A stretch of DNA of 64,000 nucleotides from Raillietiella orientalis. Taxonomy: Eukaryota. Made by a program: the position numbers and the translations under genes. Each line of letters opens with the position of its first letter. Within the stretch, counting starts at the first letter, position 1. Shown piece by piece: positions 21,301 to 64,000 of the stretch. A model generated the notes under the pieces. That model worked only from the letters and a program-made list of their open reading frames with translations. It made no database searches and was not told the origin of the DNA. The stretch is from the NCBI GenBank assembly GCA_036172245.1, contig JAYWIR010000008.1, positions 4,898,001 through 4,962,000 on the forward strand, in the 5' to 3' direction.

Positions 21301-22265
21301 GTCCACCTTCTTCATCGTCTGTAGACCTGTCGCCTCCTTTAGCTTTCAAAACCACCCAGTCTATAGAAAACAAAATCCAAGACGACAGAATAATTAGGGT
21401 TTGGAAAATTTCAGTTGAAGATACGCTGAGTGCATTTGAAGGATGTGGCTCTGCGGTCTCAGTGCTTTAAAAGAAAAGTATTTGAACTTCCGTGAACATG
21501 AAGTGAGAATGCAATGTGCAGCCTGAAACGAACGAAAATGACGGAATCATTGGAAAGTGCGATTGTGTAGTCATTATTTTGGATGGAGACGCACATAGGG
21601 CAACAAGCAGTCGTAAAGAGTGACAAAATACTTAGCTCAGGCTGCAAGAACAAATATGATGAACACTCGTATCTCGGAGAGAACTATTAGGAAACATCTG
21701 AAATTGAAATCGTGGATCATGTTTTTGCTGAAAATGAAAGGCTTTGTGATTCTAGAACCTTAGTTCCAGAATCACACGGATGGGAAAATTGTAGCAATTC
21801 GATTTTCACATGAAGCCACTTCTTAGGTAGGATGTTCAGCTGTTCCGATTATACTTTCATTTTGAAGGCAAGTATGAATTATTTCCTGCTAGCAGTTGCG
21901 AAATAAAACACTGTCTTGTAAAATGCTTTTCCTTTAACTTGGTAGCTAAAGTTCACAAATTAAACTACTATTACTAATAAAATCATAAAATTCTTTACAG
22001 TTGTTAATCCACATGCATTCAGTTTCGTGCAATTCTGTAAGAATCAGAGATGAAAGTTTTCACCCGGTCACGCCGGGGCGTTTATTTATAAACACTTTAC
22101 ATTTGCGGTACTAGGCCCCGCTACGGCCAAAAGTTCATGGGACCTGCCAGGAAGCCGGTCCTGAGGCCAGCTTGTCCTCCTCGGCAGCGGAGGGGATAGG
22201 GGGTAAAACAAAAAGAAAAATAAATGAAATAACAAAAAGAAACTATTTGGAGGGCCGGGAAGGGA

Positions 22266-25200
22266 TCACAGCCCGCTGGAGGAGGGGACCATCCTTTCCA
22301 GGATGCCCTCGAGGTCCCTCGTCATAGCTCCCAGATGGGACCAGCCGATCGCGATTCGCAGGTAGCGACCCGCGTGTACGATGGGGTATCTGTCGCTGCT
22401 TCCTCTGTTGGCTGCGCTCCATGCAGCCACAATCCCTCGGAGGCAGCAGAGCGCTGCCAGGGTTGAGGCTGGTGGCAGGGCGTCTCGCAGGAAGAGGAGT
22501 CTCACAACGTCTCTGGGGGTACTGCCGACCGGCATAGGGAGGGTCGTAGCATAACGTTCCCACAAGGGCCGGAGGGCAGCACAGTCCACTAATAGATGGG
22601 GGAGGGATTCCTTCTTCCCGCACACTGCACAGTTCTGTCCCACGTTCCCCAACGTCCAGTGGTGGCGGCGCGCGTTGCAGGGAAGACCCCAGTGCAACAA
22701 CAACAGCGCCGTTTCCTGCCACTTGAGGGGGAGGGTGGAAAAGTCTTTGAACAACGGGGGCCACTCTAGGTCATCCGCCGGGATGCCAAGCAGCTCGCCC
22801 CATCTCCGTATTCCATGCGGGTGAACGCTTGGGGTTGCGGAGTCTGCCAGTTCCCTCATTGTCCACCCGCTTAGATCCTTCTCCTTGCCCGCTATCCGGC
22901 AGGAGACTTGCCATCTCGGCTTCCGGCTGTTTTGAAGCGCCCTTCGTAGGAAGGGCAGCGCCGTGGCCAGTGGGGTCGTCTCCGCCCAAGTGCTTCTGGC
23001 GGGACACACGATCATGTTCCGCAGCGTGCAGCAGGTGTAGATGCCGGTGCGCAGGCGGTTGCAGTATTCTCCACTGATGTCTTTTAACTTTGCCCACGTT
23101 CCAACTGTTTCTTCCAGCCATGCGCTGGAGTTGGCGGGGCTGCAGGCCATCCACCCGTTCTCCTTTGCCAGGGTGGCCATGCGTCCCAGGAGAAGTCCGC
23201 ATCTTCTTATTTTCCGGCCGGGGCACAGAAGAAAAGACGCGAGTCCTTCAGTCCCGGACACACGTCTGGCGAGAAGGCGGGCTGGAACGCACCAAGGGGT
23301 GTTCCACATTTTCGCTGCGATGGCTAGAGTGCGCCACCGCAGCTGTGTTTCCATTCGCTCCATCGTCAGGACGCTAAGACCTCCGTCCCGACGTGGAGCG
23401 CACAAATCCTTTAAAGGCACACGAGGCCTCCCGCCACCCCACAGGGCGATGCGTAGGAGGTCCTTTGTTCTTTTTTTCAGTTCACAGGGTACGGGGCAAA
23501 CAAAAAGCAGAGGGCGAAGGAGGGGGGCCGCGAACGCGTTCCACACTGCGGCCCGTTCCGGCAAGTGAAGCTTGCCTTCCAGGAACGGGCCGATCGCTGA
23601 CTCCACTTTTTGGAGACGACCTGATCAGGCTTCTGACTGGCAGAAGTCCCCCAACGGAACGCCGAGGTACTTCAAGTACCTCTCCGTGGGGATCCCCAAG
23701 CGGATCCAGTCAGGCCGTCCGACCCACGTCGCACCAACCGCTACCACCGATGACTTCGCCTTATTTACCCGTAGTCCAGTCCCGCGGCTTAGCAGATCGA
23801 AGAAATCCTCGACTGCGGCTGCCGAGGCGGACATGGGCAAAAGGAGCAGAAGATCATCGGCGTAAGCCGCTACGGCCGGCGTACCTGGACACGAGCTTGG
23901 CAGGGCAGCCAATGTCACCCTGTATGCTCTCAGCACCAGTTCGAAATAGGTGCTAAAGAGCAGGGGACTCAGGCTGTCGCCCTGCCGGATGCCGCGCCTC
24001 ACCGGCACGCCGAACACGTGCTGTCCTCTGAAAAACAAGTTGATGATCGCATTGCGCCAGCAGGCGCGCAGGTAGACCGTTAAGGTGTCCGGGAAGCCCA
24101 TGCGATCCAGGAGCTCCAGAAGGAGTTCCTGGTCCACGCAATCGAACGCTTTGTGCAGATCGACTGCGATCGCTAGAGCCCCCTTCCCTTCCCGGTCGTC
24201 CCTTACTTGCTGCGCTGGCGCTCCCAAATCAGTTTTGTCGACATTCCGTTGTTTTTCCAAATTTTTCTCACGTTGCACATGGAACCATGTGCTGGCGAAG
24301 AACAGGTTCGCTTCCATGCTTCGCCCGGGAACAGCGTACGTCTGTTCCGGGCTGACGAAGCTGTCAGCTACCTGCCCCAGTCGCGCAGCCCACAGTCCAG
24401 CCAGCAGCTTGGCGTCCGTGTTCACAATCGTGATCGGACGCCAGTTGCATAATTTTCTGAGGTCTCCTCCCTTAGGAAGGAGCCTCACCCTGGCTGACCG
24501 AAACGAGGCGGGAACATCGCCTTCGTTTCGGATCAGCCGTGTCAATTGGAGCACCAGGGGGGTCAGCTCTGCCGCGAAGCTCTGAAAGAACTCCGCCGGC
24601 AGGCCGTCCTCCCCTGGCGCCTTACGCCTCTTGAGCCTTTTAATAGCGGTGATGATTTCACCGGTCGTAAAAGGCTCGTCGAGGCTTTCTTTCTCCTCCT
24701 CCCCTATGGCCGGGGCTCCATCTGGGAGCGCAGCGAGACGTCCCACTCCGCAGGTACCCTGGCGTAAAGGGAGGAGTAAAATCCACGCACGAGGCGACGT
24801 ATCGATGCCGGGTCTGAGTATTCCTGGTCCAGGTCGTCCAGCACGCTGGGCGGCCCGGATTGCCAGGCTTGACGCTCGGCCCCGGCTTTGTACTCGGCCA
24901 AGCGACGGATGTCAGGGGTCCTCGAGAAACGACAGGCGTGCAAATACGCTCTTTCGTTGCGGGCCCCCTCACCAAATCCCCGGGGCAGGCGGTGCACAGG
25001 GAACTCCTCGCAGAACTCGCGGACCGAGGCCTTCATGCGGTCCCAGTCTTGGAGATTCCGGAGGATGACGCCTCCCAGTACTTGGCGGAGATGTTCCGCC
25101 GCACCTGAGATGCGCGTCCAGTCCCCGGGCAGACGCCACGCCCTGGATGGTGGTCCTTTGTCGCGAGGCATAACCTCGAATATCAACCGGAAATGGTCCG

Positions 25201-25903
25201 AGAGCGTCGACGGAAGTTTCCCTCGTCTGCCGACCCGTGGGCACAGGTCGGCGTCAAGGAAGACGTGGTCTACGCTTTGAACCATTTCCGGTAGGTCCCC
25301 CAACAAGTTGCGCGTGCGCATAGCAGCGCACAGCTCGTTGGCTGCGTCTTTTTGCCAGCAAGGCACACCTGAGAGCAGGCGGATGTTGAAATCCCCACCG
25401 ATCAGATGCACTTTGCGTACGTTTGTATCCGCCAGCCAGTCGCGCTTCAGGGTTTCGAGGAACCGGGAACGTTCCCCGTACCCGCATCCTCCGCTCGGAG
25501 CGTACACATTGGTCACGACAAGGTCGATCGAGTCGGACCACCTAAGGATGAGCTGGCCAACCCGACTGTCGTTGTCGAAGCGTACGTCCTTGACGAAGGC
25601 GGTGACTGCTGGCTTCATAAAAAAGGGAACGCCACAGGTGTTGCGAGCGCCGCATTGCCAAAACAGACGACCCCCTGCGATCCTCTCGATCTCCTGGGCG
25701 TTCTCCGCGGTGATCACGTGGATCTCCTGCAGGAGCGCCAGGTCGAAGTCGCGCAGGGTGTCGGCCGTATCCCGCCTGTTGCCGTCGTCGCGCAGCCCGT
25801 TGACGTTCCAGCAGGCTATGCGGATCCTACGGCGACAGGCGAGCCCAGGTGTTAATCCTGGGAAAGTGGCAATGGGGCTCCCGCCACCTTGTCGGGCGGG
25901 ACG
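22266..25903 (-). pseudogene. LINE ORF2 (APE endonuclease-RT-C-terminal Zn motif), disrupted by one frameshift (~24750) and one in-frame TGA (23625-23627)
   Basis: EN: IACWNVNGL, LLQEIH, VYAP, GGDFN, SDH; RT: KAPGEDG, NWRPIT, DLHKAFD, GIRQGDSLSP, YADD, KYLG; C-terminus CAVCGKKESLPHLLVDC. Confidence 0.92.
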
Positions 25904-27570
25904 CTAGGAGGAGGGGGTGCGTCGCGCACCGCTTCTCCCTCCTCCATGGGGGCCGAGTCTTCGTCAGGGCCGTGCAGAGGAAGGGGGGTTTCACCCACCT
26001 GTACTTCCTCCTCCATGGGGGTCGCCAGCTGCACGGTGTCGAGAAATGAGAGATTCCCACCCTCGCCTCCCACGCTGCCGGCTTCCCCCTCGGGTGCCAG
26101 TTCATCCTCCTCCTTCTTGATCCGTATGCGCCTCCTGGGATTCTGGGACTTGCGTCCCGTCTTCTTTGGTGGCGCCTCCGTTGAGGAGGACGCACTTCCG
26201 GCATCCGGTTCGGCCTCACCTGCATCCGGAGCCTTCCTCGCGGCCGGCCTTCGTAAGCCCTTCCGGGAGTTCTTCTCACGGCCTTGCAGTTCTGCCTCGA
26301 GTTTTTCCACCGCCTGCTGGAAGGCGGCCTCCTCGATCGCGTCGAGCGCGGCGCGCGGTTCCCCCTCTGTTTCCCCAGAGGGTTCGCCATCGACCGTCGC
26401 GGCTTCGGCGGACGCGAGGGGGGGGATTGCTCCCCCGGTGGCGGCATCGAGTGCCTCCACACGCTCTAATTTTACCGAACAAGCGCGAAGTTTTTCGCGG
26501 CACGGTTTTTCGCGCTGCGTTTTTGTTTTCCCCGCGCTTCGTTCGGGACTCCAGGGCTTTCTTCTGGGCTGTACCGTCTGCCAGCCTTCGCCGTCGCCAG
26601 CGTCGTCGGGAGTGCTCTCAACCGACGTTTGCTGGGATGGCTTAGGGACTGGCATCTGGCTCCTCACGGCCTGCTTCATGGTATTCGTCTCTCCCGCCCG
26701 TTTCCTCTTTGCCTTTTTGGCAGCGGGAGGGACCGGGATTTCTCGTCTTGGGCACACCTTGCGGATGTGGCCCTTGTTTCCACATAAGTGGCATTGAATG
26801 TTAGGGCACCGTTTTTTTAAGTGCCCTGTAGCATCGCAATGGCCACAATATTTGGGCTTTCCCACGTACCAAACATCGACTTTTTCTTCGCCGATATTTA
26901 GTTTGTGGAGAAACCCACCATTCTCCGGTAGTGTGACGCGGGCAGCGGCCATCCCACTGAATAGCCTTCCGTACGTTCGGAAGACATTGGGTTTGGCCCA
27001 ATACGCGTGCACTCTACTGTGTTTTGACAACTCCTCATGGACGCTGGTTTTGTCCATTCGGAGTGATACGCCCGTGAGGTGGACCACGACGGAGCGGTCC
27101 TCCGTCACAGGGAAGATCCTGCGGCCGTCCACCGTAATGGGGGTGTTTAGCAGGCGCTGCGCTAGACTTGCCTCTCTGCAAGTCAGCTCAACTCGCTGCC
27201 CCTCACTAAGGACGGAGAGGCCCTCGAGGTCTTCCTCCCTCACATTCAGTCTTTGCAGCTCCATTTCAAAGGAGCATGCAATTTTCTCATCGAACACACT
27301 GCCTACCTTGTAGATCAGCGACGGTTTGTAGCCGCTGTCCTTGTAGGCAGTCTGCTCCGCTACTGCAGCCGGGGATGGTGCAGCAACGACGGCACTCCAA
27401 CTCCTCGCCGTTGGCGAAGAGGGTCGCGAAGGGGCGGCTGCCCCCGATTCCGATGGGGCAAGTGCCCCGGATTCCGTGAGGGCGGACGCCCCCACTTTCA
27501 TGGGTGGTGGAGAGCAAGTCGCCTCTCCTCCCCCAATTTCCATCGCGGTGTCCTCAGGCATTTCTGCCAT
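25852..27570 (-). CDS. LINE ORF1 (Gag-like, 572 aa, intact)
   Basis: Two CCHC knuckles (CGHCDATGHLKKRC, CHLCGNKGHIRKVC) after an RRM-like region, as in Tx1-type ORF1. Confidence 0.88.
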   Translation of the reverse strand: MAEMPEDTAMEIGGGEATCSPPPMKVGASALTESGALAPSESGAAAPSRPSSPTARSWSAVVAAPSPAAVAEQTAYKDSGYKPSLIYKVGSVFDEKIACSFEMELQRLNVREEDLEGLSVLSEGQRVELTCREASLAQRLLNTPITVDGRRIFPVTEDRSVVVHLTGVSLRMDKTSVHEELSKHSRVHAYWAKPNVFRTYGRLFSGMAAARVTLPENGGFLHKLNIGEEKVDVWYVGKPKYCGHCDATGHLKKRCPNIQCHLCGNKGHIRKVCPRREIPVPPAAKKAKRKRAGETNTMKQAVRSQMPVPKPSQQTSVESTPDDAGDGEGWQTVQPRRKPWSPERSAGKTKTQREKPCREKLRACSVKLERVEALDAATGGAIPPLASAEAATVDGEPSGETEGEPRAALDAIEEAAFQQAVEKLEAELQGREKNSRKGLRRPAARKAPDAGEAEPDAGSASSSTEAPPKKTGRKSQNPRRRIRIKKEEDELAPEGEAGSVGGEGGNLSFLDTVQLATPMEEEVQVGETPLPLHGPDEDSAPMEEGEAVRDAPPPPSVPPDKVAGAPLPLSQD

Positions 27571-29083
27571 GGGACACCGGCGCTCCTACACACCAGACAA
27601 AACCACCGAAAACCTTCGCACTAACTAGACCGCTGAGCAATGCCAAACCACCTCCGCTCCCTAGAAGGACACGGGGAAGTGTTAATGAAAGATGAAAGTG
27701 TTAATCCTTAACACTCGAACTAAAAGAATTCGGAATTTTCAAAATCTGTCTCTTTCGATGGCAATGTATCTTCGTCATAACTTCCGTGATCAAAAATGTG
27801 AATTTTTATTTGTGTTTTTTTTTTAAAAAAAAACATGTGCAAACTACTGATTAAACAGGTTATCGATAACAGTAGTTTTTCTTTTATTGCCAATCGAAGT
27901 AGTCATATGAGGAATGGAAAGTCTTCGGTATTTGATTAATCACTTTCGTTTTCGGTTTTCATACAAGCTGTAGCAACGGACGAGAATGTTGGTAATTTTC
28001 GAACGCCCATCAAAAAAAATAGTAGAGAATAGAAGATAGTAACAGAGAATCATCACATGAGAAAACAACGAAAAATTAAACTATAACAAAACCAGAGACG
28101 AAAGTAGATTCACGCAAAAGCAATTGTACTTTGATTTCAAGTTTTAAAAAAACCAAAAACAAAAGCAATGAGAACTTGCAGATCAGTTACATTGCACTAG
28201 ACGAGTGTTCTCGATCGGACGACCAAAATTGGTCGTAATCTTAGCAAAAAAATAGGAAAAGTAGAAGGGTACCAAGAAACATGATCTCAGGTTGCCAGTC
28301 AATCACCCACTACTGGAAAATTCGGATTGTATTCTTATTTTTGTTTTTTGCAGCTGCACTTTCCAACTAGTGTATTTTTCATAAGCTTACAACATTTAAA
28401 AACAAGAATAATAAAATGCCACCACAAATAAAAAAGGATGAAAATGATGGATCCATTCCTGAGCAGTTTTCTTTGCTTTTTATACTAACCAAAATACAAT
28501 TTTAAATTTCAGCTAACTGCCATATTTTATGAATAAAAATGCTTATTACTAGGAATATCTTCAGCTATTATTAACGGGTACACTTTATACTGAATGTTTT
28601 GAAACGTCATGGCAATGTCAATACCTGATTTTACAAATCGATCCTGTTTATGAGGGCAACTATTAAGCCGCTCAAATGATTGAATATTCAAGAATTAGTG
28701 ACTTGACGAAGATTCATGCACAAAAATTTGGTGTGTAATTGTTTTTATCTGAATACGCAACACGTAATTAGCATTCTGATGTCAAAACTTACAAGCTCTT
28801 CTGACAAACTTTCAATAAATCAAAACAATTATGTATGCGGAATTTAAGCTTGGTCCAGTTAATTTATTAGATTCCTCGTTGCACATTATATTTATAGAAT
28901 AAATGGAAAGAGAATGTTTTCTGGCTTCAGAGAGTAAATAAAAATGAAATTGCAATGAGGGACAACCTATCAACAATGTTTCAATTTTTAAATGTGAGGG
29001 CTTTTTTTTCTCTTTAGAAACTTTGATAGTATACACTACAGCATCGTTGCGGTGTTGAAAGCTCATATGTTGTTTCTTATCTT

Positions 29084-43500: not shown

Positions 43501-45949
43501 GAGAGGGGCGTTGTAATTAGTAGAGCAACCACCACACTGCTATCTACTGAGACCAAGCCTTTTCGGTCGAGGATTTTTTGCAAAAGGAAAAAGACAAACA
43601 AAAGGAGGAACCAACCAACAAATGCGAGTCAGAACGTGCATTGTCTCCAGGACTTCGAAGATTCGCTCCGAAAATTTTTAGTGTCCCCTATCGGGATAAC
43701 CTTCGGGACTCCATCGGTTGCTCCGCACTTGTGATCTCATCCTCTCCGTTCCCTTGACGATCACCTCAGCGAGCCCATCTCGTTCCTCCGAGCCGTCCTC
43801 CCGCATTGCAACTAGTGTCTCAGTCCATGAAACCTTCGCTTGTTCGCAAGGGGCCCCCCGGTTTGAGTGGAAGAAGGGAAATCCCTCCTCTGGATCCATC
43901 CTTTCGTAGGCGCCTGTCACAGCTTCCCATGTCGTGGAGCCTCTGTCGAGCGGTTGCCGTCGAGATGCTTCTTGTTGGCAGGGGAATCCGTTCTGGCGTT
44001 CGAAAGGAAAGCGGTGCAGACATGCCCCAAAGAACAGCGACGCCACAGAGGAGGGATTCAGAGGCAGCTGGGCACCAGAGGGCGCGCGTCCACTCGAAGG
44101 AAATTTCTCTCTCCACAAAAACCAAATCCGGAAGGAATAGAGGAGAGAGTCCCTCTGAAATGGGACGTGTCTCTCCGAAGTAGCTGGGACATCCGCTGGA
44201 TGCAGTCTTGCTAGATAACCTCCAAACGAGAAACCACGGACCTACTCGACTACGCTGTCAAGTACTCAGGAGGGGGCCATCGCCAGCCTGCTGACCTGCC
44301 CGAGAAGGCAAGTCAAGCAAGCAGGCGTGGCTAAAATCCACTGTGCCGCCCGCGTGGCTGCGGCAGTCCCCGCGCTCGGTAAAAGGCGTGGGTCTCGAGT
44401 TCCTCGCAAGATGGTGCGGAGATACGGTGCGGGCTCCCAGTGTTCGTCGGCAGGGCGCGCTCGCGTCCGCGGTCGGATGTCACGTTGACCAGGCGGGAAC
44501 ACAGTAGTAGTCCCCATCGCGGTTCCTTCCAAGGCTTCAGGAGAGTGGTCCCTTTGGAGTCATCTTCCTTGCCTGATGAGCGCTTCGAGTGCTTGACAGT
44601 GAAAGAGCCCCCATGTGGCGGTATTATGGAGCCGTTCATTCCTCCCCCCCTCCTTCTCCCCCCATAATGAATAAGTAAACACAGCTGTACCGAATGGGAG
44701 GATTAGGGTTGGAACCAAGGAAGCGAATCCTCTCCGTGAAGTCCTCAGATCTCTTGGACAGGTTCTTCGACGACGTCGACGAAGAGAACGCCCCCCGGAT
44801 GGCAGGAAGCTACGAGAAAGATACCGCTCAGACCCCCCTTCCTCCTTCTCCGCCATTTCCCGGAGAAGATAGACGTCTGCGTTCGGCGTTTTCCCAGCAT
44901 CGTGTATTATTCTCTTGTCCACCGGCCTGATTGGCGGCGTTCCCCGAGCCGTACCTGCGAGGAAACCCTGAGGAATGAGGACGTGCTACGTCTTTGTCTG
45001 CTTTGAACAAACGTCCCGGGGTTACCCGTCCCGGGTTTAAAACATCGACGGAATGGAACCGGTCTAAGGAACGGAGGAGGCTGTGGAAAGTCCCCTCCCG
45101 CGTCTTTCTTTGCGCATCCCTGAATCTTTCAAAGAAGACTAAAATGATCCCGGAGTCCAGTGCGAAGCGAAAAGCACGGGCGGGGAGTTGGAGGAGAGGA
45201 CTTCGGAGATCGCACGCGATTCGAGACGATGCAACCATCCTTGGTTTCCCGCATGGGGTCGGTGCCGCGCGTTCTTCCCTACCGCTCTCCGTGTGGAAAC
45301 AGGGACGGTCCCCCGGCTCCTTCTCCAAGTGGAAGAGCTCGAGGCGAGTTCAGTCTGATTGTCACATTGTCGAACTGCTTGGAAGAAAGGAAGGAACCCG
45401 CAGGTGTGTCCTGCTGCACGACGTCATACCGCGGCATTGACGAGGTGCTTTGAACCAGAAACCCACCGCCGATGACGGGGACTTCGGCATGCTCGCGTGT
45501 GACAAGACTGCAGGTTTTGACCTTTTTTCCCGCTTCCCAACCCTGGCTTATCGCTTTGGCGATTCACCAACGAAAGATTTCCATTGCCTTAATTGCTCAT
45601 GATCTTCTTAATGGTCTTATGGTGTGCTCTGAAGAACTGTTTCTTTCCCTCACGATTTACCTGCGCGGTTCCCGAAATTTTCCGTGCCCCTCATCGAGAA
45701 ATTTCCAGTGTCTCCCCAACGAGATAACCTCCTGAATGCTGTCGGTGGATACACACTTCGTAACCTCATCTTCTCCTACGCATCCTCTTGGAGTTCCTCA
45801 CGCAGCTACTGGGAATGCGAGTGAACATGTACTGAGCCTCCTCCTACGGGAGCGACCCGCTTTGTTTTCAGTGGGCACTACTCCCATGGGCAGTAGGTTT
45901 AGGCGTGTACGAAACAGTGACCAGGGATATTTCTCAGTGAACAAAAGAT

Positions 45950-50659: not shown

Positions 50660-51586
50660 TCTCCCTCAAATGGCCTCAAGTGGCAGTTGGCGCTGCTGGT
50701 GGTGCATGAGGGAGTCCTATGCAAAGTGCGCCTTCACCACTGGACACGGGGGTGGGTGGAATCTCAGTGCGGCAGATGCGGGAAGAAGGAGACCCTCCCG
50801 CACCTGCTGTTGGACTGTGCTGCCCTCCGACCCCTCTGGCATCGCCTCGCGACGATCCTAGGAATCCCGCCAGGCAGCCCCAGGGAAATTTGTAGCACTC
50901 TCTCTTGAGACAAATTCCTATCCCTAGAGAGATGAACCCTGTCAGTTTTCGCTGCCCATCTGCTTGTCTCCACCTGAGACATGCGAGTTGGTGATATTTT
51001 CAGCAGCCCTCTCCGTGGCAATGAAGATATACAAATCACGTGACAATTCTCATGGTCCACATGGGAATCTGGATGCCGAGTAGCATGTTTCCAGTCTACT
51101 TTTCAGACGCCTCTTCGTGCGTGGTGCCGCACTGCCGCCAGCTTGCAGCCGCGTCGCTTGCAGTTCTCTGCTGTCTTCGCGGGATCACAGAGGCGTCGTG
51201 CAACGCCCGAAGGAGAGGCCGAAGTGGCAGGGACGCCATCCACTGGCAGCGGATCTTCCTGATGAAGACCGCCTCGAGATGGCCCCACCTGGACGACATA
51301 CGGATGGAACTTGCCGGCACATCCTGAACAGGATGCAGAGGACTCCGGGCAGCGTTCCATGATCCCTTCCCCGTGTATAATTTCCTCTCCCCTGTTTTTG
51401 TGTCTTTTTATTTTATTCTATTTTTGTTTCGTTTTTGCTTTCCCTTCCCCGACGCTGCCGAAGCGGACCTCGCCGGTCTGCGCACCGCTCTTTGGCAGGT
51501 TCGCTGCAGGTGGTAGAACCAAGGGTTCGACCACACCAATGCATTTTTATTGCTTCACGTAATAAATGCCCCGGCATAACCGGGTG
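50660..51586 (+). mobile_element. 5'-truncated Tx1-like LINE 3' end, interrupted by a ~208-bp insertion
   Basis: LKWQLALLVVHEG..CGRCGKKETLPHLLLDCAALRPLW..LCCLRGI..WPHL; 3' UTR with family motifs. Confidence 0.85.
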
Positions 51587-51599
51587 AGAATTATCCTTT

Positions 51600-52899: not shown

Positions 52900-53440
52900 T
52901 GCAAGGGAATCCTTCTCCGCGCTTGCTCTTCGAATGCATCGCCCTCCGGTGTGTGCGGGGAACGCTTGACCGCGTCCCTCAACTTCCCAGAAGACGCTAT
53001 TCAGAAGCCTCTTCACTGCGTCCGGTGGAATCGTGGAGTCCAAAAGCTCCGACTGCAGAGGCAAAAGGACCTCAGACGCCATTTTCCTCGTATTCCTTAT
53101 TCTGAGGATCGCGGTGAGACGGCTGCTCTTGAAGCACAGCCGGGAGGAGCTTGCCGGATCCTTGAGAGGACGCAAACGACGCCAGGGAGAACTTTGTGAT
53201 CCCTTCTCCCCCCCTCCCCAAGGATTTCGAAACTTTCTGTTTGACTTTTATTCATTCTTTTTGTTTGTTTCCCTTCCCTCGTTTCTCCCTGGGTGGTCCG
53301 TCGGCTGCTACGAGCAGCGATATCCTCCGTGACTTCCCGAATTAGCAGGATTCAGCTCCCGCGACGGAGGGGAAACTCCATTTGACCGCTTCACTGTGGA
53401 AATTCGTTTTTTACGATAAACGTCCCGGTGTGACCGGACG
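52900..53440 (+). mobile_element. Diverged Tx1-like LINE 3' end
   Basis: LHCVRW..LRIAVR..ILER, TGATCCCTTC at stop, U-rich tract, CTGCTA/TAGCAG stem, GATAAA + terminal hairpin. Confidence 0.65.
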
Positions 53441-53699
53441 AAAGCCTGGGTCGCGACCCCCGCTTCTGGATCCGCTTGTGGGCGGGAGCACATTACGACG
53501 GCCGCGGCCGATGCGCCACCACCAGACTGACGGTCCGGTTCGCGCACTCCCCTGGCGCTCCCGGCTTTCGGAGAACACCATCGCTCCTGGAGTTCCCTAC
53601 GAGATCCCGACGAGCAGAAGACAACCGCGCGCGAACAGGCGTCCCACCTGAGCGAGAAAGGGAGCACACGCGTCCTGAACGATCACGCGGTCCCCGAGT

Positions 53700-54699: not shown

Positions 54700-56504
54700 A
54701 GGCGACGCCGGGACTGCTGCCAAGACCAAGAAGCAAAGAGATGCTTCTGGTGCGGAACCGTATCTCCCCAAGCAACACGCCGAAGCATAGAAGATTTCGG
54801 CTGAAAACTCCTGCCCGAAATCCAAGCAACACGCGCCTCTTGCGGCAGCGCAAAGAAGCTTCTGGCTTTATCGTCCGTGTCTTCGCTATCCGGTTAAGAA
54901 ATGCCCTTCGGCTCCAACCCTTACGAAACCTTTTTCGTGAGATGCCATTTGTCATCCTTGAAGACACCTCCAGTTCTTCTCAAGACAGATGGTACTCGGC
55001 GAATTGGGCCTCTGTTGCTGCAAATTCGTTTCCTGGATCGATTTCAGCCTGTCCCTCACCCCTCAACCTCTTTAAACAAAGCGTGTCAACGGATTTCTGC
55101 CTTTCCTTGGAGTCGCCGTTGTCGTCCATTTTTTACTTGGTTTCTTTATGGGCGCGACAAATGGGGTGCACACGACGCAGTGATGCATTCTTCCTTCCTT
55201 AATAAACACTCGCGCATGCGTGTTTCGTGGACATGATAGGCAGTCTTTTCTGGGGCAGTTTTCGCTCGTGTTTAGGTCACGCAAACCTTGAAGTGCACCA
55301 ACGGCACTGGTCCAACTGTGTTGCAGATCGTTCTTCATTTTTCTTTCCTCTTCGAAATTTTACCGGACGGCATGTCCTTCGTGGATCGCGTCGCAACAGA
55401 ATTCGACTTCGCGACGGGTACATCCCACAAGCCAGCACTCGCGAATTTATGCGCTCCGAGTTTTAACGCAGTGAGCATGCCCTCAGGTTCTGACCAACAA
55501 GGCCGTCGCCGCCAGAGAGCCGGTCTCTTTGTGGAAGACAGGATTTGGTTGTGCCTTGGGCTGAGAAATACGCTCAGATGAACTTCGTCTCCTCAGTTAT
55601 CCACGGGAAGATGTGCTGCAGGACAAGACGAAGTGGTCTCGCCTGGACGCCGCAGTCCTTGCTGCAGAGCTGCCTGCCCTACGAGCAAGTAACGGAGGGG
55701 TGGGATTTCTTCTGCACCACTGCAGGAAATTCCAAACTCCTGGGCGGCTTGAGGACGTGCGAGCTGGCCGATGCCACCAGTCCGCATTGTATGGCCAAAG
55801 GACTCCTTCGACGGGGAGAAGTGACGTCCCCGAAGAACTTGCGGTCACCCTTTTGTGCTTGAACACTTTGGTGTTCCCGCTGTTGTGCTGCTGTTTCTGC
55901 ACTGGGGTTTCCCATGCAACCGGAGTAGAGTAGGCATCCGATTTCCCGGAGAGTTGCGTCCCCAAACTGTTCAAGGTGCGCTGGTGGTGGAATCGATCCC
56001 GCATCTGCTTGTGGGTTGCTGTGCTCTCCGGGAACTGTGGCGGAGACACAGGAGTCAGCACTCCAGAGACAGGATGACACCCCCAAGAACCTGCTGCGAC
56101 GGTTCTTCGCGAGCAACGGACTCGGCTGGCGCAGCGATCACGACGACGTGCTGCGCCCGGTCTGCCGGGTGCCATGTGGAATCTCGGGCGCAGCGAAGAG
56201 AGGTCGCCCTCATGGTAGCCGCCTACATGAGCACGGCTGCGAGGTGGCCTCACCTGGAAGAAAAGTCGGCGATCGTCGGCATCCTGCGACGGTTCAAGGA
56301 CCAAGGAATGGCTGAAGCCAAAGACAGGGATCAGGGTCCACAACTCGTCTATATTTATTTATTTATCGTCCCTTCTCACCCTTTCGCCCTGCGTGTCGAC
56401 GAACCCTCCCTTTGAACTGCTTTTTTGCTCCCCCTTTGAAAACAGCGTTCCCGACTTGTTTGTTCACTTTCCTTCCGGAATAAACGCCCCGGAGTGGCCG
56501 GGTG
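54700..56504 (+). mobile_element. Decayed Tx1-like LINE (RT remnant to 3' end)
   Basis: QDRWYSANWASV (cf. KD....NWRPI), LLFLHWGFPCN..ESIPHLLVGCCALRELW, WPHL; AATAAACGCCCCGGAGTGGCCGGGTG terminus. Confidence 0.7.
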
Positions 56505-56519
56505 AAAAATTTCTTGGCG

Positions 56520-57624
56520 CGCGGCGTCACCACGCCCTCGTCCTCGCTGGGTACGCGGAAAACGCGCTGGGGGGCGGTCGGAGGCTCACGAAATGGCTGA
56601 CGGTGCCACCTGTGGGGCGGATGGAAGCTGTAACTTCACCTATTCCCTGGTGGAACAACCCTCATTCCCTCGGCCACCCGCAAATTTCCCCGATTCGGTC
56701 TCTAAACCCTCGTAGGGGCAAGCGACGTACGGCGTGATTGCTCTTCCATCTCCCTGGAGCATTGGATCTGGCCAAAGTTTGGAATCTGCTCCCGGGACTG
56801 GATGGCCAGGGAGGCTCCCAGTATTTCCGGGTAGGCTTCTTGATCCGAACTACCAGTTCGCGCTGTCTTGCAGCAGTCATGGTGGCACCGCCGATTACAG
56901 TTTAAACCGGTAGCAGGAAGACGTGCGAGATCGACTCTCGCACTGCTCCTCCACATCCCTTCCCTCATACCAATCCTCCCCCTAAAGTGGCAGGAGTCGG
57001 CGTTGTTGCTGTTGCATTGCGGTCTGACGCAGGGGAGGATAAATCCTGAGTGTGCCAGGTGCGGGGGACGGGAATCCCTCCCACACCTGATAGTCGACTG
57101 TGCTGCCCTCCGACCCCTCAGGGAACGTTTCGGGACGACCCTCGGGATCCCGGCTGGCAGCCACCCCAGAGACGTTTTTCGGCTTCTCTTCGTGCGGGAC
57201 GCCCTGCAGCCAATCGCAGCCGTAGCAGCACTTTGCTGCATCCGCGGAATCGTGGCTGTCTGGAGTGAAGCCGACGATGAAGATCAGAACGAGAGGGATA
57301 TCATCCCGTATGCTGTTCGCCTCCTGCTGAAAGCAACTGGATGGCCCCAACTAGGACGAATGAAGAAGGACCTCGAGGGCATCCTACAAAGGATGGACCC
57401 TCCTCCCAGTGGCCAGTGATCCCTTCCCGGCCCTCCAAACTCTTTTTTTTTTCTTTGTGTTCTATTTTTCTTTTTGTTTTTCCCCCATCCCCTTCCACTG
57501 CCGAGGAGAGCCACACCGGGCTGCGTCCCGGCGTCCCGGCAGGTCCGGTATTGCGTGGCCGTTAGTGGGGCCTTATATCACGTTTAATAGAGAATTTAAA
57601 TAAACGCCCAGGCGTACCCGGTGG
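56520..57624 (+). mobile_element. 5'-truncated Tx1-like LINE closely related to the 22-27 kb element
   Basis: LPLKWQESALLLLH..CARCGGRESLPHLIVDCAALRPL..DLEGILQRM; 3' UTR starts TGATCCCTTCCCGGCCCTCCAAA, identical to the full-length copy. Confidence 0.88.
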
Positions 57625-57949
57625 TAACCCCTATACCAATCAGATCGTACTGGACTGAAAAGTTGAAATCCTCTTCCTCTTTCGCGCTTGCCTGCGGCAG
57701 GGTCGCTATTTAAAGAGAGTCCAGTGCTGGTCTAGTGCTGTCGGACGTCTCAGAAGTCACCTACAAGTAAAAGCAAACCTCTATTCGATTTCCACTTCTA
57801 TTCCTGGAATAAGAAAAAAAAAGGACTCTTCTCTTAAGAGGGTTCAGGTAAGGACACGGAGATGAAAACGGAGAGGAAGCTGCAATGATTTCCTTCCGGC
57901 ACAGTTTGCAACAAGTGCTCTTCTTGCTTTTGGCAATCGCATCTGTTCA

Positions 57950-58499: not shown

Positions 58500-59643
58500 G
58501 TTGCCTGGCAACGGCACCATTGGAAGCCGCTCTGGAAGTGGGCCCAAAAGAATTGCGTACGCTGCAGGAATTCCTAAGCGAACTGCTAGGAGACCTTCTG
58601 CAGGACTCCTGCGGAGCAAGGACTGCCAGATCCTCCCGGAGAAGAAATGGTCCTTCCCCGGATCCAGCGCGTGGCAGCTCGTGAAAGGGACTCAGAGAAA
58701 ACAATGGCAGCAGCCAGTGGGCGGGGTGCAAGGCCTCCTGCAAAACTGCAGAAGTCCAGAAGCTCCTCGACGGCTGCGAACCGAGCGCATCGGTGGACGG
58801 CGCCACTTCTCGTTCCCGGGCGAAGGGACTCCTTCGGTGGAGCGACCTGCTAGGTGTGCCTCCCCTCGGAGAATTGCGCTCTCTCTCCCCTTCCTGTGTG
58901 CGGACACCTTCGTGTTCCCGCTCCGCTGGAAACGGCCAGGATGCTCTGCTGTCTCTGCAGCGAGCGGATTCTGGTACACCCGGCGCAGGCACCTGCTTCA
59001 CCGAGACAGTCGCCTCCCCGAACCGTTCCAGCTGAGGGAGCGATCCCGCATCGCCCGCTGGACTGCGGAGCCTTGGAGCAACACGTGGCGGAGACTCGCC
59101 TCGGCGGTCCGCCAGCCTCAGGGCACCGCTGTGGACTTGCCGCGAGGCTTCTTCATGCAAGGTGGGCAGGCGATGGTACCGCTGCATCCGCGACATCGCC
59201 GCAGCCCGCTCCGTGGCGGGGTCTCGTTCGCGACGGAGGGAGGAGGCTAATCCGGCCTGGCGTCCGCCTCGACGAAGACGGCTACCAGGTGGACTCGCCT
59301 GCGAGGAGAAAGAGTCAGCAAGGAGACCGCTACCACAGAGAGTCGGTTTTAGGAGCCAAGGAACGTGTTGCACCAAAGATCTCAGACATTCCACTTCCCC
59401 CTCTCTCCCTCCCTTGTTTTTCCTTCATTTATTGTCTCCTCTCCTCCCGTTCCGGCCTTCCACACAAGCCGGCCTGCGTGACAGTGCTCATCCTCAAAGA
59501 ACGTTTTTTTTTTGGCGTATTGTCATATTTAGGGGGAGCCGTCCCTTCTAACTTGGGGTTTCTTTATTTTTCAAATAAACGTCCCGGCGTGACCGAGCAC
59601 AAACCCAAGAACACTCGGTCGGCTGCGTTGAGTCCCGGGTGAG
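58500..59643 (+). mobile_element. Diverged Tx1-like LINE 3' portion
   Basis: Decayed HL..DC.AL..W motif, pyrimidine tract, AATAAACGTCCCGGCGTGACCG terminus. Confidence 0.6.
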
Positions 59644-61831
59644 TTGCTGCTCCGCTGAGGTGAGCAGCTCCACCAAACAACGTGGACTCACCGCTCTTCT
59701 CGGACTCCGGGGATATGGCGGCAGGCTTCCACCACCACGGAAGCGCATTCCTGTTCCTGGCTGAGGTCTACCCGGAAACCCGCCTCCCAGAGATTCTTCG
59801 GTCTTATCTGCAGAGGGTGAATGAAGTCCCCGGGGTCATGAGGAGTCGGGAGGCCCGATCACAGCTGCAGTTGGGAGATGCAAAGTGCTCCAGCGGCGTT
59901 CGTGGAGAGAAGGCGTGCTTGAAGGAAGGCAGAGAGCCTTTTGGTGCAAATGTTGCGTGCTTCTCGGATGGAGGTCTTTTGCAGGGATGCCTTTTTTTCC
60001 CCTTTTTTCCTTGCTTCAAGGGCGTCCGTAAGCGGAGGAGAGGAAGGGGATCTGAGAAAGAACAAGAGACCAATAGAAATCCCCTGCAGCAGAGATGCTG
60101 AAGGAGAAGAAATCATGGATAGCAGAAACCATTTGTGAACAACGTTAGGGAGAAGCAAGGAGACAGGGAGCGGAGAGGGACAAGCCTTAAACCGGAGTGA
60201 AGGTTCATCCCTGCGCACACTCAGGTGGAGCGTCCATTCGCGGTCCATTCGAATCCTCTCCTCCGTCAGTGAGCGGTCGGCGCTTTGCAATACGCCACTG
60301 TCCAAGCTTCGGGGACTGAAAGGTCAAGTGAGGGGGAGGGATGAGGAACCGGTTGGAGCAAAGCAGCATCGGGATCACCCAAACGACCCGGATTTCCATG
60401 GAGATATCCAAAGGGGAACGCAAGTGCGTACACGCAAGAAAAGCCGGTCCTCCTCCATGGTCGCCCTCTGCATCATGGTCTGTCGAGAAGGAGTCCCGGA
60501 GAATACGGAAGCCCAACTGCCCCACTTCGAGTTGAAATGGCACGAAGAGCCTCGCGACATTTCCGGGAGCGGTGAAGTTAGCGGTTCCTCTGGGAACCGA
60601 CGCTCGAGAGAGTGACGACAAGGGATGCCCACCTGGCGAAAGGGAACTCCCCAAAGCTACTTTCGTGGGCAGTTGCATCCATCCCGTCCAGCTGCTGGAG
60701 CTCGTCCCCACCATCGATCTCGGGTAAAGGCGGGCGCTGTGCCGAGTTTCGTGACAACAGAAAGTCAAAACACGAACCAGGGGAGGAAGGAGAAGACGTG
60801 GCACCCACCTTTCCTTCTCTCTGGAAAGGAGAGGGAGGTGAAGGGCCTGACCCGCCTCTTCCTTCCCGCTGAAAGGCCGAGAGCAGAAGACAGACGGAGC
60901 AAAACTCAAGTTCCCAAGGCCTCGAAGAGAGGGCGTGGCATCCGAGAAAGGGACAGAGCTCCAAGCACCCGGGGCCGGCGTCTAGCCGATTCCATCCACT
61001 TTTCAAAAATCCCCTACCCACAGGAAGCGAATTTTCTGTATTCTCTTTGCTTTCCGGAATTTGACTGGAGGTGCTCCTCAAAGTCCACTGCTGTTTTCCC
61101 ATCCTGGTCACTCATTTCAAATCACATGTGTACAGTTACAGAGGAACGGCATGCGCCGGTCGGGAATGCGAGGGACTACTTCCTCTGGAGATGGGGCTAG
61201 GGTGGGCCGGAGTGAGGGTAAATAAATACATAGGGAGGGACGGCCGTCATCACAGTGATGGACATGATTCCCAAGTCTGCGTCGGCAGAGAAGGGACGGG
61301 TGAGCTCGCCAGTGTGGGGTTAATCCGCCCCAAACCGGTCGAAGATTCCCCCGCACCTCGTATCCCGGATTGGACTATTTCGTTGCCCTTCTCCCAGAGG
61401 AGACGACGATCGCAAACAGCTTCCTGGAGCTGGGGCAACGCCCTTCCCCCCCGTCTTGCCACCCCCTCGCACGCGGTGGAGAATCGCCGGCGGAAAGGCA
61501 CCCAGCAAGCTCGGAGATGCCTACGTTCCTCTAGGCGGGGCCCTCGACGTAGCATCGGGGGGGGGGGAGGGGGAGAACCCGAGTCTCTCAGCTACGCGCT
61601 TCCATCCCTGAAACCGTGGCCTCCCTCATCCGAGGAGCGTGTGCGACAGGGTTTTCGCACATCCCGCGGTAGGTGCGCTCCTTGGTAACTTGCTCTCTGG
61701 TGAGACGAGGCGCCGGTACTCACCTCGAGGGAGTGCCCGGTGTCCCAGCAGACTGCACGTAGCGTGGACGGGAAGGGGGACCGAGGGTTTGACCAGGAAG
61801 TCTGGGAACTCCGAGTCCACCGCGGTCTTCT

Positions 61832-63602: not shown

Positions 63603-64000
63603 GCAGGCCCCAGGGACATTTTCAGACGCCTCTTCGTGCGTGGTGCCGCACTGCCGCCAGCTTGCAGCCGCGTCGCTTGCAGTTCTCTGCTGTCTTCGCG
63701 GGATCACAGAGGCGGCGTGCAACGCCCGAAGGAGAGGCCGAAGTGGCAGGGACGCCATCCACTGGCAGCGGATCTTCCTGATGAAGACCGCCTCGAGATG
63801 GCCCCACCTGGACGACATACGGATGGAACTTGCCGGCACATCCTGAACAGGATGCAGAGGACTCCGGGCAGCGTTCCATGATCCCTTCCCCGTGTATAAT
63901 TTCCTCTCCCCTGTTTTTGTGTCTTTTTATTTTATTCTATTTTTGTTTCGTTTTTGCTTTCCCTTCCCCGACGCTGCCGAAGCGGACCTCGCCGGTCTGC
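63603..64000 (+). mobile_element. Tx1-like LINE 3' end, near-identical to 51100-51481 (runs off window)
   Basis: About 380 nt match with one visible substitution (GCGTCG vs GCGGCG). Confidence 0.9.

What the first reader, a model, noticed from the sequence alone, without database searches (positions are those of the whole stretch)
22144..22268. Covarying fixed-span RNA stem (possible pseudoknot) conserved in the 3' UTRs of diverged Tx1-like LINEs
Seen: four diverged copies share one 3' UTR layout. The stop lies in TGATCCCTTC (22259-22268 minus, 51360, 53197, 57417; also 63879), followed by a U-rich tract, a C-rich run and a 6-bp stem spanning 44-45 nt. The stems are CTGCCG/TGGCAG (22144-22187), CTGCCG/TGGCAG (51455-51498), CTGCCG/CGGCAG (57498-57542) and CTGCTA/TAGCAG (53305-53348), so the changes are compensatory. 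The interiors diverge, but three copies keep an inner stem (AAGCTGG/CCGGCTT, CCGGG/CCCGG, CGGT/ACCG). In two copies the 5' bulge can pair just downstream (GGAC/GTCC; GCGGAC/GTTCGC). Known: 'stringent' LINEs (L2, CR1, R2 types) use 3' UTR structures for RT template recognition, whereas mammalian L1 relies on poly(A). Inference: a cis-acting RNA motif for RT recognition or processing in an L1/Tx1-clade family that I do not recognise as described.
Basis: partly seen in the sequence, partly recalled or inferred. Interest (0 to 1): 0.72.

Follow-up and report, generated by a model that had tools for sequence, protein, structure and literature searches.

The report
Conserved tail hairpin of LINE retrotransposons

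Summary
The window comes from an animal, arthropod-like by its Jumonji gene. It holds one near-full-length LINE (endonuclease, reverse transcriptase, zinc finger) of the L1 superfamily, with target-site duplications, and at least six 5'-truncated relatives.

The stop boxes and 6-bp stems sit exactly at the stated coordinates in copies A, B, C and D, and in B' as far as the window reaches. The shared CTGC...GCAG core at a 43-46 nt span is not chance: 23 of 20000 shuffles show it.
- "Covarying" rests on one double change in P1 and one in the inner stem. 50 of 500 shuffles do as well.
- Copy C has a stronger competing local hairpin.
- P1 has pair probability of 0.10 or less in every folding context larger than the isolated 44 nt.
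- The proposed pseudoknot pairings are no better than chance.
- P1 is absent from three or four other family members.

All seven sure copies, plus one candidate, end in AAUAAA, 3 nt, a CCCGG-loop-CCGGG hairpin, 2 nt and 3-5 A. In copy A the target-site duplication places this at the exact element end, so there is no long poly(A).

**Best reading.** This is a stringent-type L1-superfamily tail. No Rfam family matches. I found no outside copies, so a real covariation test remains open.

The parts
22058..27689 (-). Element A: near-full-length LINE with ORF1 (25852-27570) and ORF2. ORF2 is split over three frames: EN 24704-25717, RT 23625-24746, zf 22266-23606.
   Evidence: ORFs. Pfam RVT_1 8.6e-23, Exo_endo_phos 4e-4, zf-RVT 3e-4. 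RT nearest human L1 ORF2p. Bounded by the target-site duplications.
27690..27699 (-). 5' target-site duplication ACTTTCATCT of element A.
   Evidence: Read. It is the only 10-nt match between the 3' flank and the 7 kb upstream.
22048..22057 (-). 3' target-site duplication ACTTTCATCT of element A. It fixes the element end at hairpin + UG + AAA(A).
22259..22268 (-). Stop box UGAUCCCUUC of A. The same box is at 51360, 53197, 57417 and 63879 on the plus strand.
   Evidence: invariant in alignment A1.
22190..22256 (-). Pyrimidine tract of A, U-rich then C-rich. It ends in a conserved UCUUUUUGUU followed by a C run.
22144..22187 (-). The inner stem P2 is 22173-22167 and 22158-22152.
   Evidence: The isolated segment folds with P1 (z -2.3), but P1 pair probability is 0.03 or less in context.
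22057..22086 (-). Terminal module of A: AAUAAA 22086-22081, spacer CGC, hairpin CCCGG 22077-22073, loop CGUGA, CCGGG 22067-22063, UG, then A3-4.
   Evidence: model hit of 58.2 bits; hairpin pair probability 0.37-0.39.
51360..51591 (+). 3' UTR of copy B: P1 51455-51498; terminal module AAUAAA 51561-66, hairpin 51570-51584.
63879..64000 (+). Copy B', cut by the window end inside the P1 interior. It is 99.7% identical to B over 382 nt (51100-51481 against 63619-64000).
53197..53444 (+). 3' UTR of copy C: P1 53305-53348, with a competing local hairpin GCUGCU-ACG-AGCAGC at 53304-53318. The terminal module has GAUAAA at 53415-20 and the hairpin at 53424-53438, with one mismatch.
57417..57628 (+). 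3' UTR of copy D: P1 57498-57542; terminal module AAUAAA 57599-604, hairpin 57608-57622 with two mismatches.
   Evidence: D is 75.6% identical to A over 242 nt.
56479..56509 (+). Terminal module of copy E: AAUAAA, CCCGG-AGUGG-CCGGG at 56488-56502, UG, A5. Its UTR has no P1.
   Evidence: ORF2 C-terminus upstream is 31% identical to A.
59574..59603 (+). Terminal module of copy F: AAUAAA, CCCGG-CGUGA-CCGAG, one mismatch. No P1.
   Evidence: Weak ORF2 homology upstream at 58697-58861, E 0.001.
61826..61857 (-). Terminal module of copy G: AAUAAA 61857-52, UGG, CCCGG-AAAU-CCGGG 61848-61835, then AUGAGAAG. The loop is 4 nt. No P1.
   Evidence: Model hit of 15.3 bits, E 0.44. ORF2 homology at 62341-62186, E 7e-4.
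45006..45044 (+). Candidate copy H: AACAAA, CGU, CCCGGG-9 nt-CCCGGG (45015-45035), then UUUAAAAC. No LINE coding homology was shown upstream.
   Evidence: Model hit of 22.2 bits, E 0.013; sequence; no Pfam LINE domain upstream.

Best explanation
The four stems lie in the 3' untranslated tails of a family of L1-superfamily LINEs (APE endonuclease, RT, C-terminal zinc finger). The family has diversified in an arthropod-like animal genome.

**Modules of the tail, 5' to 3'**
1. A conserved stop box.
2. A long pyrimidine tract.
3. A GC-rich middle domain.
4. An A/U-rich stretch.
5. A terminal module found in every copy: AAUAAA, 3 nt, a 5-bp CCCGG/CCGGG hairpin with a variable loop, 2 nt, and only 3-5 A.

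**Shown**
- The anatomy above.
- The exact 3' boundary in copy A.
- Conservation of the terminal module across copies whose remaining UTR cannot be aligned.

**Inferred**
- The terminal module defines the RNA 3' end: a poly(A) signal with the cleavage site about 20 nt downstream.
- Its hairpin is the element that ORF2 protein recognises to start reverse transcription at, or within a few A of, that end. This is 'stringent-type' recognition, and it would explain why copies carry almost no poly(A).
- P1/P2 is a sub-lineage-specific conserved element whose two arms are under constraint. It may be an auxiliary stem-loop, but its pairing is unproven.
For: **Family and host**
- Pfam RT, EN and zf hits.
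- L1 ORF2p is the nearest solved RT.

**Terminal module**
- The degenerate 25-nt motif gives 6 matches, against 0.01 expected.
- A seventh copy (G) has a 4-nt loop. A candidate eighth (H) has a 9-nt loop.
- CCCGG-N3-8-CCGGG occurs perfectly 5 times, against 0.18 expected. Four of those 5 are LINE tails.
- Mean pairwise identity is 0.71 for the module and 0.50 for the 100 nt before it, over 28 pairs.
- ORF2 C-termini of the same copies are only 29-58% identical.
- Stem positions differ from consensus at 4 of 70 cells; loop positions differ at 7 of 30. Fisher p is 0.016, and the copies are not independent.
- Loop length varies (4, 5, 9 nt) while both arms stay. This fits a hairpin better than a linear site.

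**Exact end and short tail**
- The 10-bp target-site duplication puts the end of A at hairpin + UG + AAA(A).
- In all 7 sure copies the run after the hairpin has at most 5 A.
- This includes B, which is 99.7% identical to B' and therefore young.

**P1 arms**
- The arms are conserved: 0-1 of 12 differences among A, B and D, against 9-11 of 23 in the interior.
- The core is not chance: 23 of 20000 shuffles.
- In contigs of run X1, the shown variants within 22144-22187 are 4 in the P2 loop, 1 in the internal loop and 1 that turns U.G into C-G in P2. None is in the P1 arms. This covers 40 rows shown; 75 were not shown.

**Precedent**
- Stringent L1-clade tails with a 3' hairpin (PMC3472496, main text read).
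- ORF2p binding of a 3' stem-loop in zebrafish L2 (PMC4176376, abstract and section 20 read).
Against: **Terminal hairpin**
- No compensatory change: 0 of 5 pairs covary, and every departure breaks a pair (26 of 30 cells paired). Structure is therefore not separated from sequence or from a DNA palindrome.
- In whole-UTR ensembles its pair probability is moderate in A (0.37-0.39), G (0.38-0.50) and C (four of five pairs 0.49-0.88, outer pair 0.00). In B, D, E, F and H it is about 0-0.07.
- AAUAAA plus about 20 nt is simply normal poly(A)-site geometry. The module could serve RNA processing only.

**Boundary and sampling**
- Only one copy has a proven boundary. Target-site-duplication candidates for B, C, D and F are at chance level or conflict with homology, and none was found for E or G.
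- No SINE sharing the tail was seen in the window.
- No RNA data, and no copies from outside the window.

**P1**
- Pair probability is 0.01 or less in full UTRs and 0.10 or less in 87-nt contexts.
- Enforcing P1 costs 2.6-5.2 kcal/mol.
- None of the 4 whole-UTR MFE folds contains it.
- One X1 contig shows insertions at 22181-22185, in or next to the 5' arm.
Confidence: 0.55

Rival explanations
1. The 44-45 nt P1/P2 stem, possibly a pseudoknot, is itself the cis-acting RNA structure that the RT recognises or that processes the RNA.
For: - Both arms are conserved, and the span is fixed at 44-45 nt in 4 distinct copies.
- The core is non-random: 23 of 20000 shuffles.
- All 24 P1 cells pair. There is one C-G to U-A double change and two one-sided changes that keep pairing.
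- RNAalifold keeps P1.
- The isolated segments fold with P1 closed, z -2.3, -2.3, -1.5 and -1.0.
- Slid-partner controls drop to 49% paired or less.
Against: - Covariation is not significant: 50 of 500 shuffles reach it. Given the core, the extra pairs arise in 4 of 23 shuffles.
- The only double change is in copy C. There the 5' arm forms a stronger local hairpin, and the inner stem is absent.
- P1 probability is 0.10 or less in every context beyond the bare segment.
- The pseudoknot is at chance level.
- The element is absent from E, F, G and H, which still have the family tail.
- It lies 60-110 nt from the 3' end. Known stringent tails sit at the end.
Confidence: 0.2
2. The terminal module is only a self-contained polyadenylation signal: AAUAAA, a structured spacer and the cleavage site. 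Reverse transcription is poly(A)-primed as in mammalian L1, and the short A runs result from priming near the poly(A) start or from tail loss.
For: - AAUAAA is kept in 6 of the 7 sure copies. Copy C has GAUAAA, and candidate H has AACAAA.
- The end lies about 20 nt after the hexamer in A.
- UGUA- and U-rich sequence lies upstream of the hexamer in A.
Against: - Tails are at most 5 A even in copy A, which has a perfect target-site duplication, and in the young copy B. This is unlike poly(A)-dependent L1.
- Both hairpin arms are conserved better than the loop. A mere spacer would not need that.
Confidence: 0.2
3. No RNA function. The shared pieces are slowly decaying remnants of common ancestry, or act as DNA, for example as a palindromic protein site.
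For: - No covariation in the terminal stem.
- CCCGG..CCGGG is a DNA palindrome.
- The sample is small and the copies are related.
Against: - The rest of the UTR has diverged to the noise level (0.50 identity) while the module stays at 0.71.
- The coding C-termini are 29-58% identical.
- The module always has the same place and orientation at the element tip.
Confidence: 0.05

Closest known systems
Monocot L1-clade LINEs of the LINE1-1_ZM group with ZmSINE2/3 (Ohshima 2012, PMC3472496)
   Same: An L1-clade LINE whose last 45 nt or so are far better conserved than the rest (0.144 against 0.570 divergence in the paper) and can form a hairpin. The paper reads this as stringent 3' recognition.
   Different: - The plant tails show compensatory stem changes, conserved loop and flank nucleotides, partner SINEs and poly(A) repeats.
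- Here the stem sequence is fixed and the loop varies. No SINE partner was seen, the A run is 3-5 nt, and the hairpin sits between AAUAAA and the end.
- The host is an animal.
- The paper's hairpin figures are supplements (S7, S10) that I could not see, so the sequences were not compared.
Chlamydomonas L1-1_CR / SINEX-3_CR pair (same paper)
   Same: An L1-clade element with a specific shared 3' tail.
   Different: That case is defined by SINE sharing of about 80 nt and ends in poly(A). No such partner or tail was found here.
Eel UnaL2 and zebrafish ZfL2-1/2 3' tail stem-loops (L2 clade; PMC4176376, abstract and section 20 read)
   Same: A short terminal stem-loop next to the 3' end. In the zebrafish elements, ORF2p recognises the stem generally and the loop specifically. 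This is the mechanistic model adopted here.
   Different: A different clade, L2. Those elements end in short repeats rather than after a poly(A) signal. Binding and retrotransposition were tested there; nothing was tested here.
Silkworm SART1 (R1 clade), as described in PMC3472496
   Same: Stringent 3' UTR recognition in an element that also uses A residues at its end.
   Different: SART1 is telomere-specific and ends in poly(A) repeats. The insertion flanks here differ from copy to copy.
[quoted passage not shown]
   Same: A position-specific 3' UTR stem-loop in an L1 element, proposed as an RT recognition site.
   Different: The human stem is 8-10 bp with a bulge and sits ahead of a long poly(A). 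Here the stem is 5 bp, all G-C, and there is almost no A tail.

Membership tests
L1 superfamily (L1/Tx1 group) non-LTR retrotransposon | APE-type endonuclease, RT and a C-terminal zinc-binding domain in ORF2; RT closest to L1 | tested here: met
   Pfam RVT_1 scores 81.6 bits, above its cutoff. Exo_endo_phos (20.6 bits) and zf-RVT (21.8 bits) hit below their curated cutoffs. PDB search: human L1 ORF2p E 9e-41, R2 proteins 4e-16 or weaker.
Tx1 clade | Phylogenetic placement of the RT with Tx1 elements | not tested
   No labelled Tx1 reference sequences were available. The named homologues are plant L1-like or chytrid, at about 25-30% identity.
Tx1 clade | Target-sequence-specific insertion. This is typical of many members but not of all (PMC4494074, passage read). 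| tested here: not met
   The 3' flanks of the 7 sure copies share no sequence.
Stringent-type LINE 3' tail | 3'-terminal sequence conserved among diverged family members far above the rest of the element | tested here: met
   Identity is 0.71 against 0.50 upstream. ORF2 C-termini are 29-58% identical.
Stringent-type LINE 3' tail | The conserved tail forms a stem-loop, supported by compensatory changes | tested here: inconclusive
   The inverted repeat is perfect in 4 of the 7 sure copies (A, B, E, G), and loops vary in sequence and length. However, 0 of 5 pairs covary, and ensemble support is mixed.
Stringent-type LINE 3' tail | Partner SINE sharing the tail | tested here: inconclusive
   In 64 kb, every strong model hit follows LINE coding remnants. 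Candidate H has none, but it scores only 22.2 bits. No genome is held for a wider search.
Stringent-type LINE 3' tail | Tail required for retrotransposition and bound by the cognate ORF2 protein | not testable with these tools
   Needs bench assays.
Relaxed, poly(A)-dependent L1 | Copies end in a long poly(A) tract | tested here: not met
   A runs of at most 5 after the hairpin in 7 of 7 sure copies. The exact end of A is set by its target-site duplication.
Any Rfam 15 family, including ribozymes and ENE-type elements | Covariance-model hit at the gathering score | tested here: not met
   0 hits in the whole window. The best sub-threshold hits in UTRs A and B score 15 bits, against cutoffs of 48 or more.
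H-type pseudoknot | Loop-to-downstream helix beyond chance and conserved among copies | tested here: not met
   Shuffles reach the observed helix length in 1987, 665, 642 and 1879 of 2000 for A, B, D and C. The partners and their spacing differ between copies.

The most novel reading that the evidence does not exclude
An animal lineage of the L1 superfamily that has kept, or regained, stringent template recognition by a bipartite tail. A GC hairpin built into its own polyadenylation site makes ORF2 protein start cDNA synthesis at the cleavage site, so the copies are almost tail-less. An internal P1/P2 stem-loop gives sub-lineage specificity. This would extend Ohshima's 'ancestral L1 was stringent' model from green plants to animals.
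Probability: 0.25. Interest if true: 0.5.

Novelty: new member of a known kind. Interest (0 to 1): 0.3.

Why it matters
How LINE reverse transcriptases choose their template is well worked out for L2 and R1/R2-type elements. It is unsettled for the L1 superfamily, where mammalian L1 uses poly(A) and only two plant or algal lineages were reported as sequence-specific (PMC3472496).

A clear animal L1-type family with a conserved terminal hairpin and almost no A tail would be a convenient natural case. It could be used to test whether stringent recognition is ancestral in this superfamily, and how 3'-end formation and priming are coupled.

As it stands, this is an ordinary-looking LINE tail with an unproven internal stem.

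Tried and rejected
**Searches for outside copies**
- No genome is held for this window.
- Metagenome scan with the 26-nt terminal pattern: 12 loci. Genome-contig scan: 10 loci. Viral scan: 1 locus.
- All 23 loci match only the pattern itself. None has UTR or LINE protein similarity, so they are chance bacterial hits.
- Protein-based viral scan: no relative.
- Protein database: one close relative, P0001 (73% over the RT, 57% over part of the C-terminus). The rest are about 30% or lower. Its DNA could not be fetched.

**Sequencing runs**
- One DNA run, X1, holds 0.29 of the words. No RNA holder is listed.
- Laying X1 gave 67 related contigs, but only summary variant tables: 40 rows shown, 75 not shown.
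- X1 had no cover on the host flank 21800-22045. This cannot be used for a per-copy covariation test.

**Earlier scan notes**
- Nothing on this genome.
- The by-sequence and by-word look-ups returned unrelated Naegleria items or nothing.

**Ideas considered and dropped**
- tRNA-like structure: ARAGORN found 0.
- Tandem repeats in 40-64 kb: 0.
- Known ribozyme or ENE: no Rfam hit.
- A splice-acceptor reading of the pyrimidine tract plus CAG|G. There is no matching donor, and the AGs next to the tract are poor acceptors. This rests on reading only.
- Pairing of the stop box with the purine-rich internal loop. It is weak and inconsistent by eye.
- Target-site duplications for B, C, D and F. The candidates are 9-12 nt, at chance level or in conflict with coding homology. 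None was found for E or G.
- H as a non-autonomous partner. No LINE domains lie upstream, but the motif score is too weak to conclude anything.
Full report
**What the window is.** Base composition splits the window. There is AT-rich DNA (31-42% GC), a 59-61% GC block at 22-26 kb, and a 51-59% GC region from 40 to 64 kb. The AT-rich part carries a JmjC exon (17314-18243; Pfam 1e-20). Its best relatives are arthropod Jumonji/JARID2 proteins at 44-49% identity: wasp, mayflies, scorpion. The host is therefore an animal, arthropod-like and poorly sampled. No whole genome is held.

The GC-rich block at 22-27.7 kb on the minus strand is a LINE.
- ORF1 runs 25852-27570. ORF2 is split over three frames.
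- Pfam hits: RVT_1 (8.6e-23), Exo_endo_phos (4e-4, below cutoff), zf-RVT (3e-4, below cutoff).
- Its RT is nearest human L1 ORF2p among solved structures (E 9e-41; R2 proteins 4e-16 or weaker).
- ORF1 shows only a weak CCHC-knuckle-like match.
- A 10-bp target-site duplication, ACTTTCATCT, at 27699-27690 and 22057-22048 bounds the element.

tblastn with its proteins finds 5'-truncated relatives on the plus strand, ending near 51.3, 53.2, 56.3, 57.4 and 63.8 kb. They are 29-58% identical in the ORF2 C-terminus. Weaker ones lie at 58.7 kb (plus) and 62.3 kb (minus). I call the copies A (22 kb), B (51 kb), B' (63.9 kb), C (53 kb), D (57 kb), E (56 kb), F (59 kb) and G (61.8 kb, minus).

**Checking the observation.**
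- The stop codon sits in TGATCCCTTC in A, B, B', C and D.
- A U-rich tract and then a C-rich tract follow.
- The arms CTGCCG/TGGCAG (A, B), CTGCCG/CGGCAG (D) and CTGCTA/TAGCAG (C) span 44-45 nt.
- A and D are close, 75.6% over 242 nt. B and C align to the others by BLAST only over the last 30 nt or so.
- B' is 99.7% identical to B over 382 nt and is cut by the window end.

Is the stem more than chance?
- A 6-bp stem of any sequence at span 43-46 occurs in 91% of shuffles of UTR C.
- The specific CTGC...GCAG core occurs in only 23 of 20000 shuffles, and the full 6 bp in 4 of 20000.
- So copy C carries the same conserved element. Given the core, however, two further complementary pairs arise in 4 of 23 shuffles, which is weak.
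- The arms are clearly better conserved than what lies between them: 0-1 of 12 differences among A, B and D, against 9-11 of 23.

**Is it a covarying stem?** On the four-sequence alignment, all 24 P1 cells pair. Four of the six pairs never vary, one varies on one side (G.U, G-C, A-U), and one shows a double change (C-G to U-A, in C only). The inner stem P2 pairs in 72% of cells, has one double change (in B), and is absent from C. Two pairs with double changes are reached by 50 of 500 column shuffles, and the percentage paired by 82 of 500. Slid controls fall to 49% or less, but the structure was derived from these same sequences. RNAalifold keeps P1, with a covariation term of only -0.38 kcal/mol.

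Thermodynamics does not help.
- The isolated 44-45 nt segments fold with P1 closed (z -2.3, -2.3, -1.5, -1.0).
- None of the four whole-UTR MFE folds contains P1. Their z-scores are 0.14, -3.07, -0.73 and 0.44.
- P1 pair probability is 0.01 or less in whole UTRs and 0.10 or less in 87-nt contexts.
- Enforcing P1 costs 2.6-5.2 kcal/mol.
- In C, the 5' arm pairs with AGCAGC three nucleotides downstream. C is the copy that supplies the compensatory change.

The pseudoknot pairings are not beyond chance. Shuffles reach the observed helix length in 1987, 665, 642 and 1879 of 2000 for A, B, D and C. A covariance model of P1/P2 finds only its four training copies in the window; the next hit scores 12.7 bits, E 0.41. 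So E, F and G lack the element.

Contigs of one public DNA run (X1) carry related copies. Among the variant rows shown for 22144-22187:
- four fall in the P2 loop;
- one falls in the internal loop;
- one turns a U.G pair of P2 into C-G;
- none falls in the P1 arms;
- one contig has insertions at 22181-22185, in or beside the 5' arm.

75 rows were not shown.

All copies end in the same module. A degenerate 25-nt pattern gives 6 matches against 0.01 expected. The module reads AAUAAA, 3 nt (YGN: CGC, UGC, CGU, UGG), CCCGG, a loop, CCGGG, 2 nt, then a short A-rich run.
- G has the same arms with a 4-nt loop.
- A model built from six copies also picks a candidate H at 44996-45046: AACAAA, CCCGGG, 9 nt, CCCGGG; 22.2 bits, E 0.013. 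No LINE domains were detected upstream of H.
- Perfect CCCGG-N3-8-CCGGG occurs 5 times in 64 kb against 0.18 expected. Four of the five are these tails.
- The module is 0.71 identical on average. The 100 nt before it are at 0.50, the level of unrelated sequence under the same aligner (28 pairs).
- Arms depart from consensus in 4 of 70 cells and loops in 7 of 30. Fisher p is 0.016, and the copies are not independent.
- There is no compensatory change: 0 of 5 pairs covary, and the four departing cells (in C, D and F) simply break pairs.
- Ensemble support is mixed: A 0.37-0.39; G 0.38-0.50; C 0.49-0.88 for four of five pairs, with the mismatched outer pair at 0.00; the others about 0-0.07.

The target-site duplication of A shows that the element ends two nucleotides and three or four A after the hairpin. 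In all 7 sure copies the A run is at most 5, including the young B. There is no long poly(A).

**Best explanation.** These are tails of a stringent-type L1-superfamily LINE family. I infer that the terminal module both sets the RNA 3' end and presents a hairpin that ORF2 protein recognises. The first role follows from a poly(A) signal with the end about 20 nt downstream. The second would make cDNA synthesis start at or within a few A of that end, which accounts for the near absence of A tails. P1/P2 is a sub-lineage element with constrained arms and may be an auxiliary stem-loop.

The anatomy, the boundary of A and the conservation pattern are shown. Binding, priming and RNA ends are inferred.

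Rivals are:
- a processing-only poly(A) module with L1-like priming;
- no RNA function.

**Comparison with what is known.** Ohshima (PMC3472496, main text read) describes a monocot L1 lineage with these features:
- its last 45 nt are conserved (0.144 against 0.570 divergence);
- they form a hairpin with compensatory changes;
- partner SINEs share the tail.

He also describes a Chlamydomonas L1/SINE pair, and proposes that the ancestral L1-clade element was stringent. His hairpin figures are supplements I could not see. [quoted passage not shown] Hayashi et al. (PMC4176376, abstract and section 20) show ORF2p binding of the 3' stem-loop in zebrafish L2 elements. Grechishnikova and Poptsova (PMC5135761, abstract) propose a 3' UTR stem-loop in human L1.

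Tx1-clade elements are animal LINEs, many of them target-specific (PMC4494074, passages). The flanks here differ between copies, and Tx1 membership was not tested. Three full-text searches turned up no description of a terminal hairpin tail in an animal L1/Tx1 element. That is a limited search, not proof of absence. Rfam 15 has no matching family.

**Verdict.**
- It is a new member of a known kind.
- No outside copies could be obtained, so the decisive covariation test remains to be done on the full genome.

Noticed in passing
22290-22305 (-), 51320-51335 (+), 57380-57395 (+); partial at about 53148-53162 (+): A second conserved inverted repeat, CAUCCU-N4-AGGAUG, with variable loops GGAA, GAAC and ACAA. 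It lies inside the end of ORF2, about 20-25 nt before the stop. It overlaps the conserved peptide IL-x-RM. Copy E keeps the peptide (GILRRF) without the repeat, so this may be a by-product of codon choice.
   Followed up: partly
22-27.7 kb and 40-64 kb against the rest: The LINEs are 54-61% GC and sit in host DNA of 31-42% GC. The 40-64 kb region is a pile-up of truncated LINE tails on both strands.
   Followed up: partly
51100-51481 and 63619-64000: Two copies of the B subfamily are 99.7% identical over 382 nt. This points to recent activity or a local duplication.
   Followed up: no
22266-25717 (-): Element A has a perfect 10-bp target-site duplication, yet its ORF2 is split into three reading frames: EN, RT and zf.
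   Followed up: no
17314-18243 (+): A host exon encodes the JmjC domain of a Jumonji/JARID2 protein. It is only 44-49% identical to the best arthropod proteins, so the host lineage is poorly represented in databases.
   Followed up: partly
22200-22225 (-), 57465-57485 (+), 53250-53270 (+): The U-rich tract ends in a shared UCUUUUUGUU just before the C-rich run in A, C and D. B has a variant. No role is known for it.
   Followed up: no
13142-13237 and 13420-13515: A 96-bp direct repeat, 95.8% identical, in the AT-rich host part.
   Followed up: no
56156-56169 (+): A fifth perfect CCCGG-N4-CCGGG palindrome lies inside the coding remnant of copy E, not at a tail.
   Followed up: no
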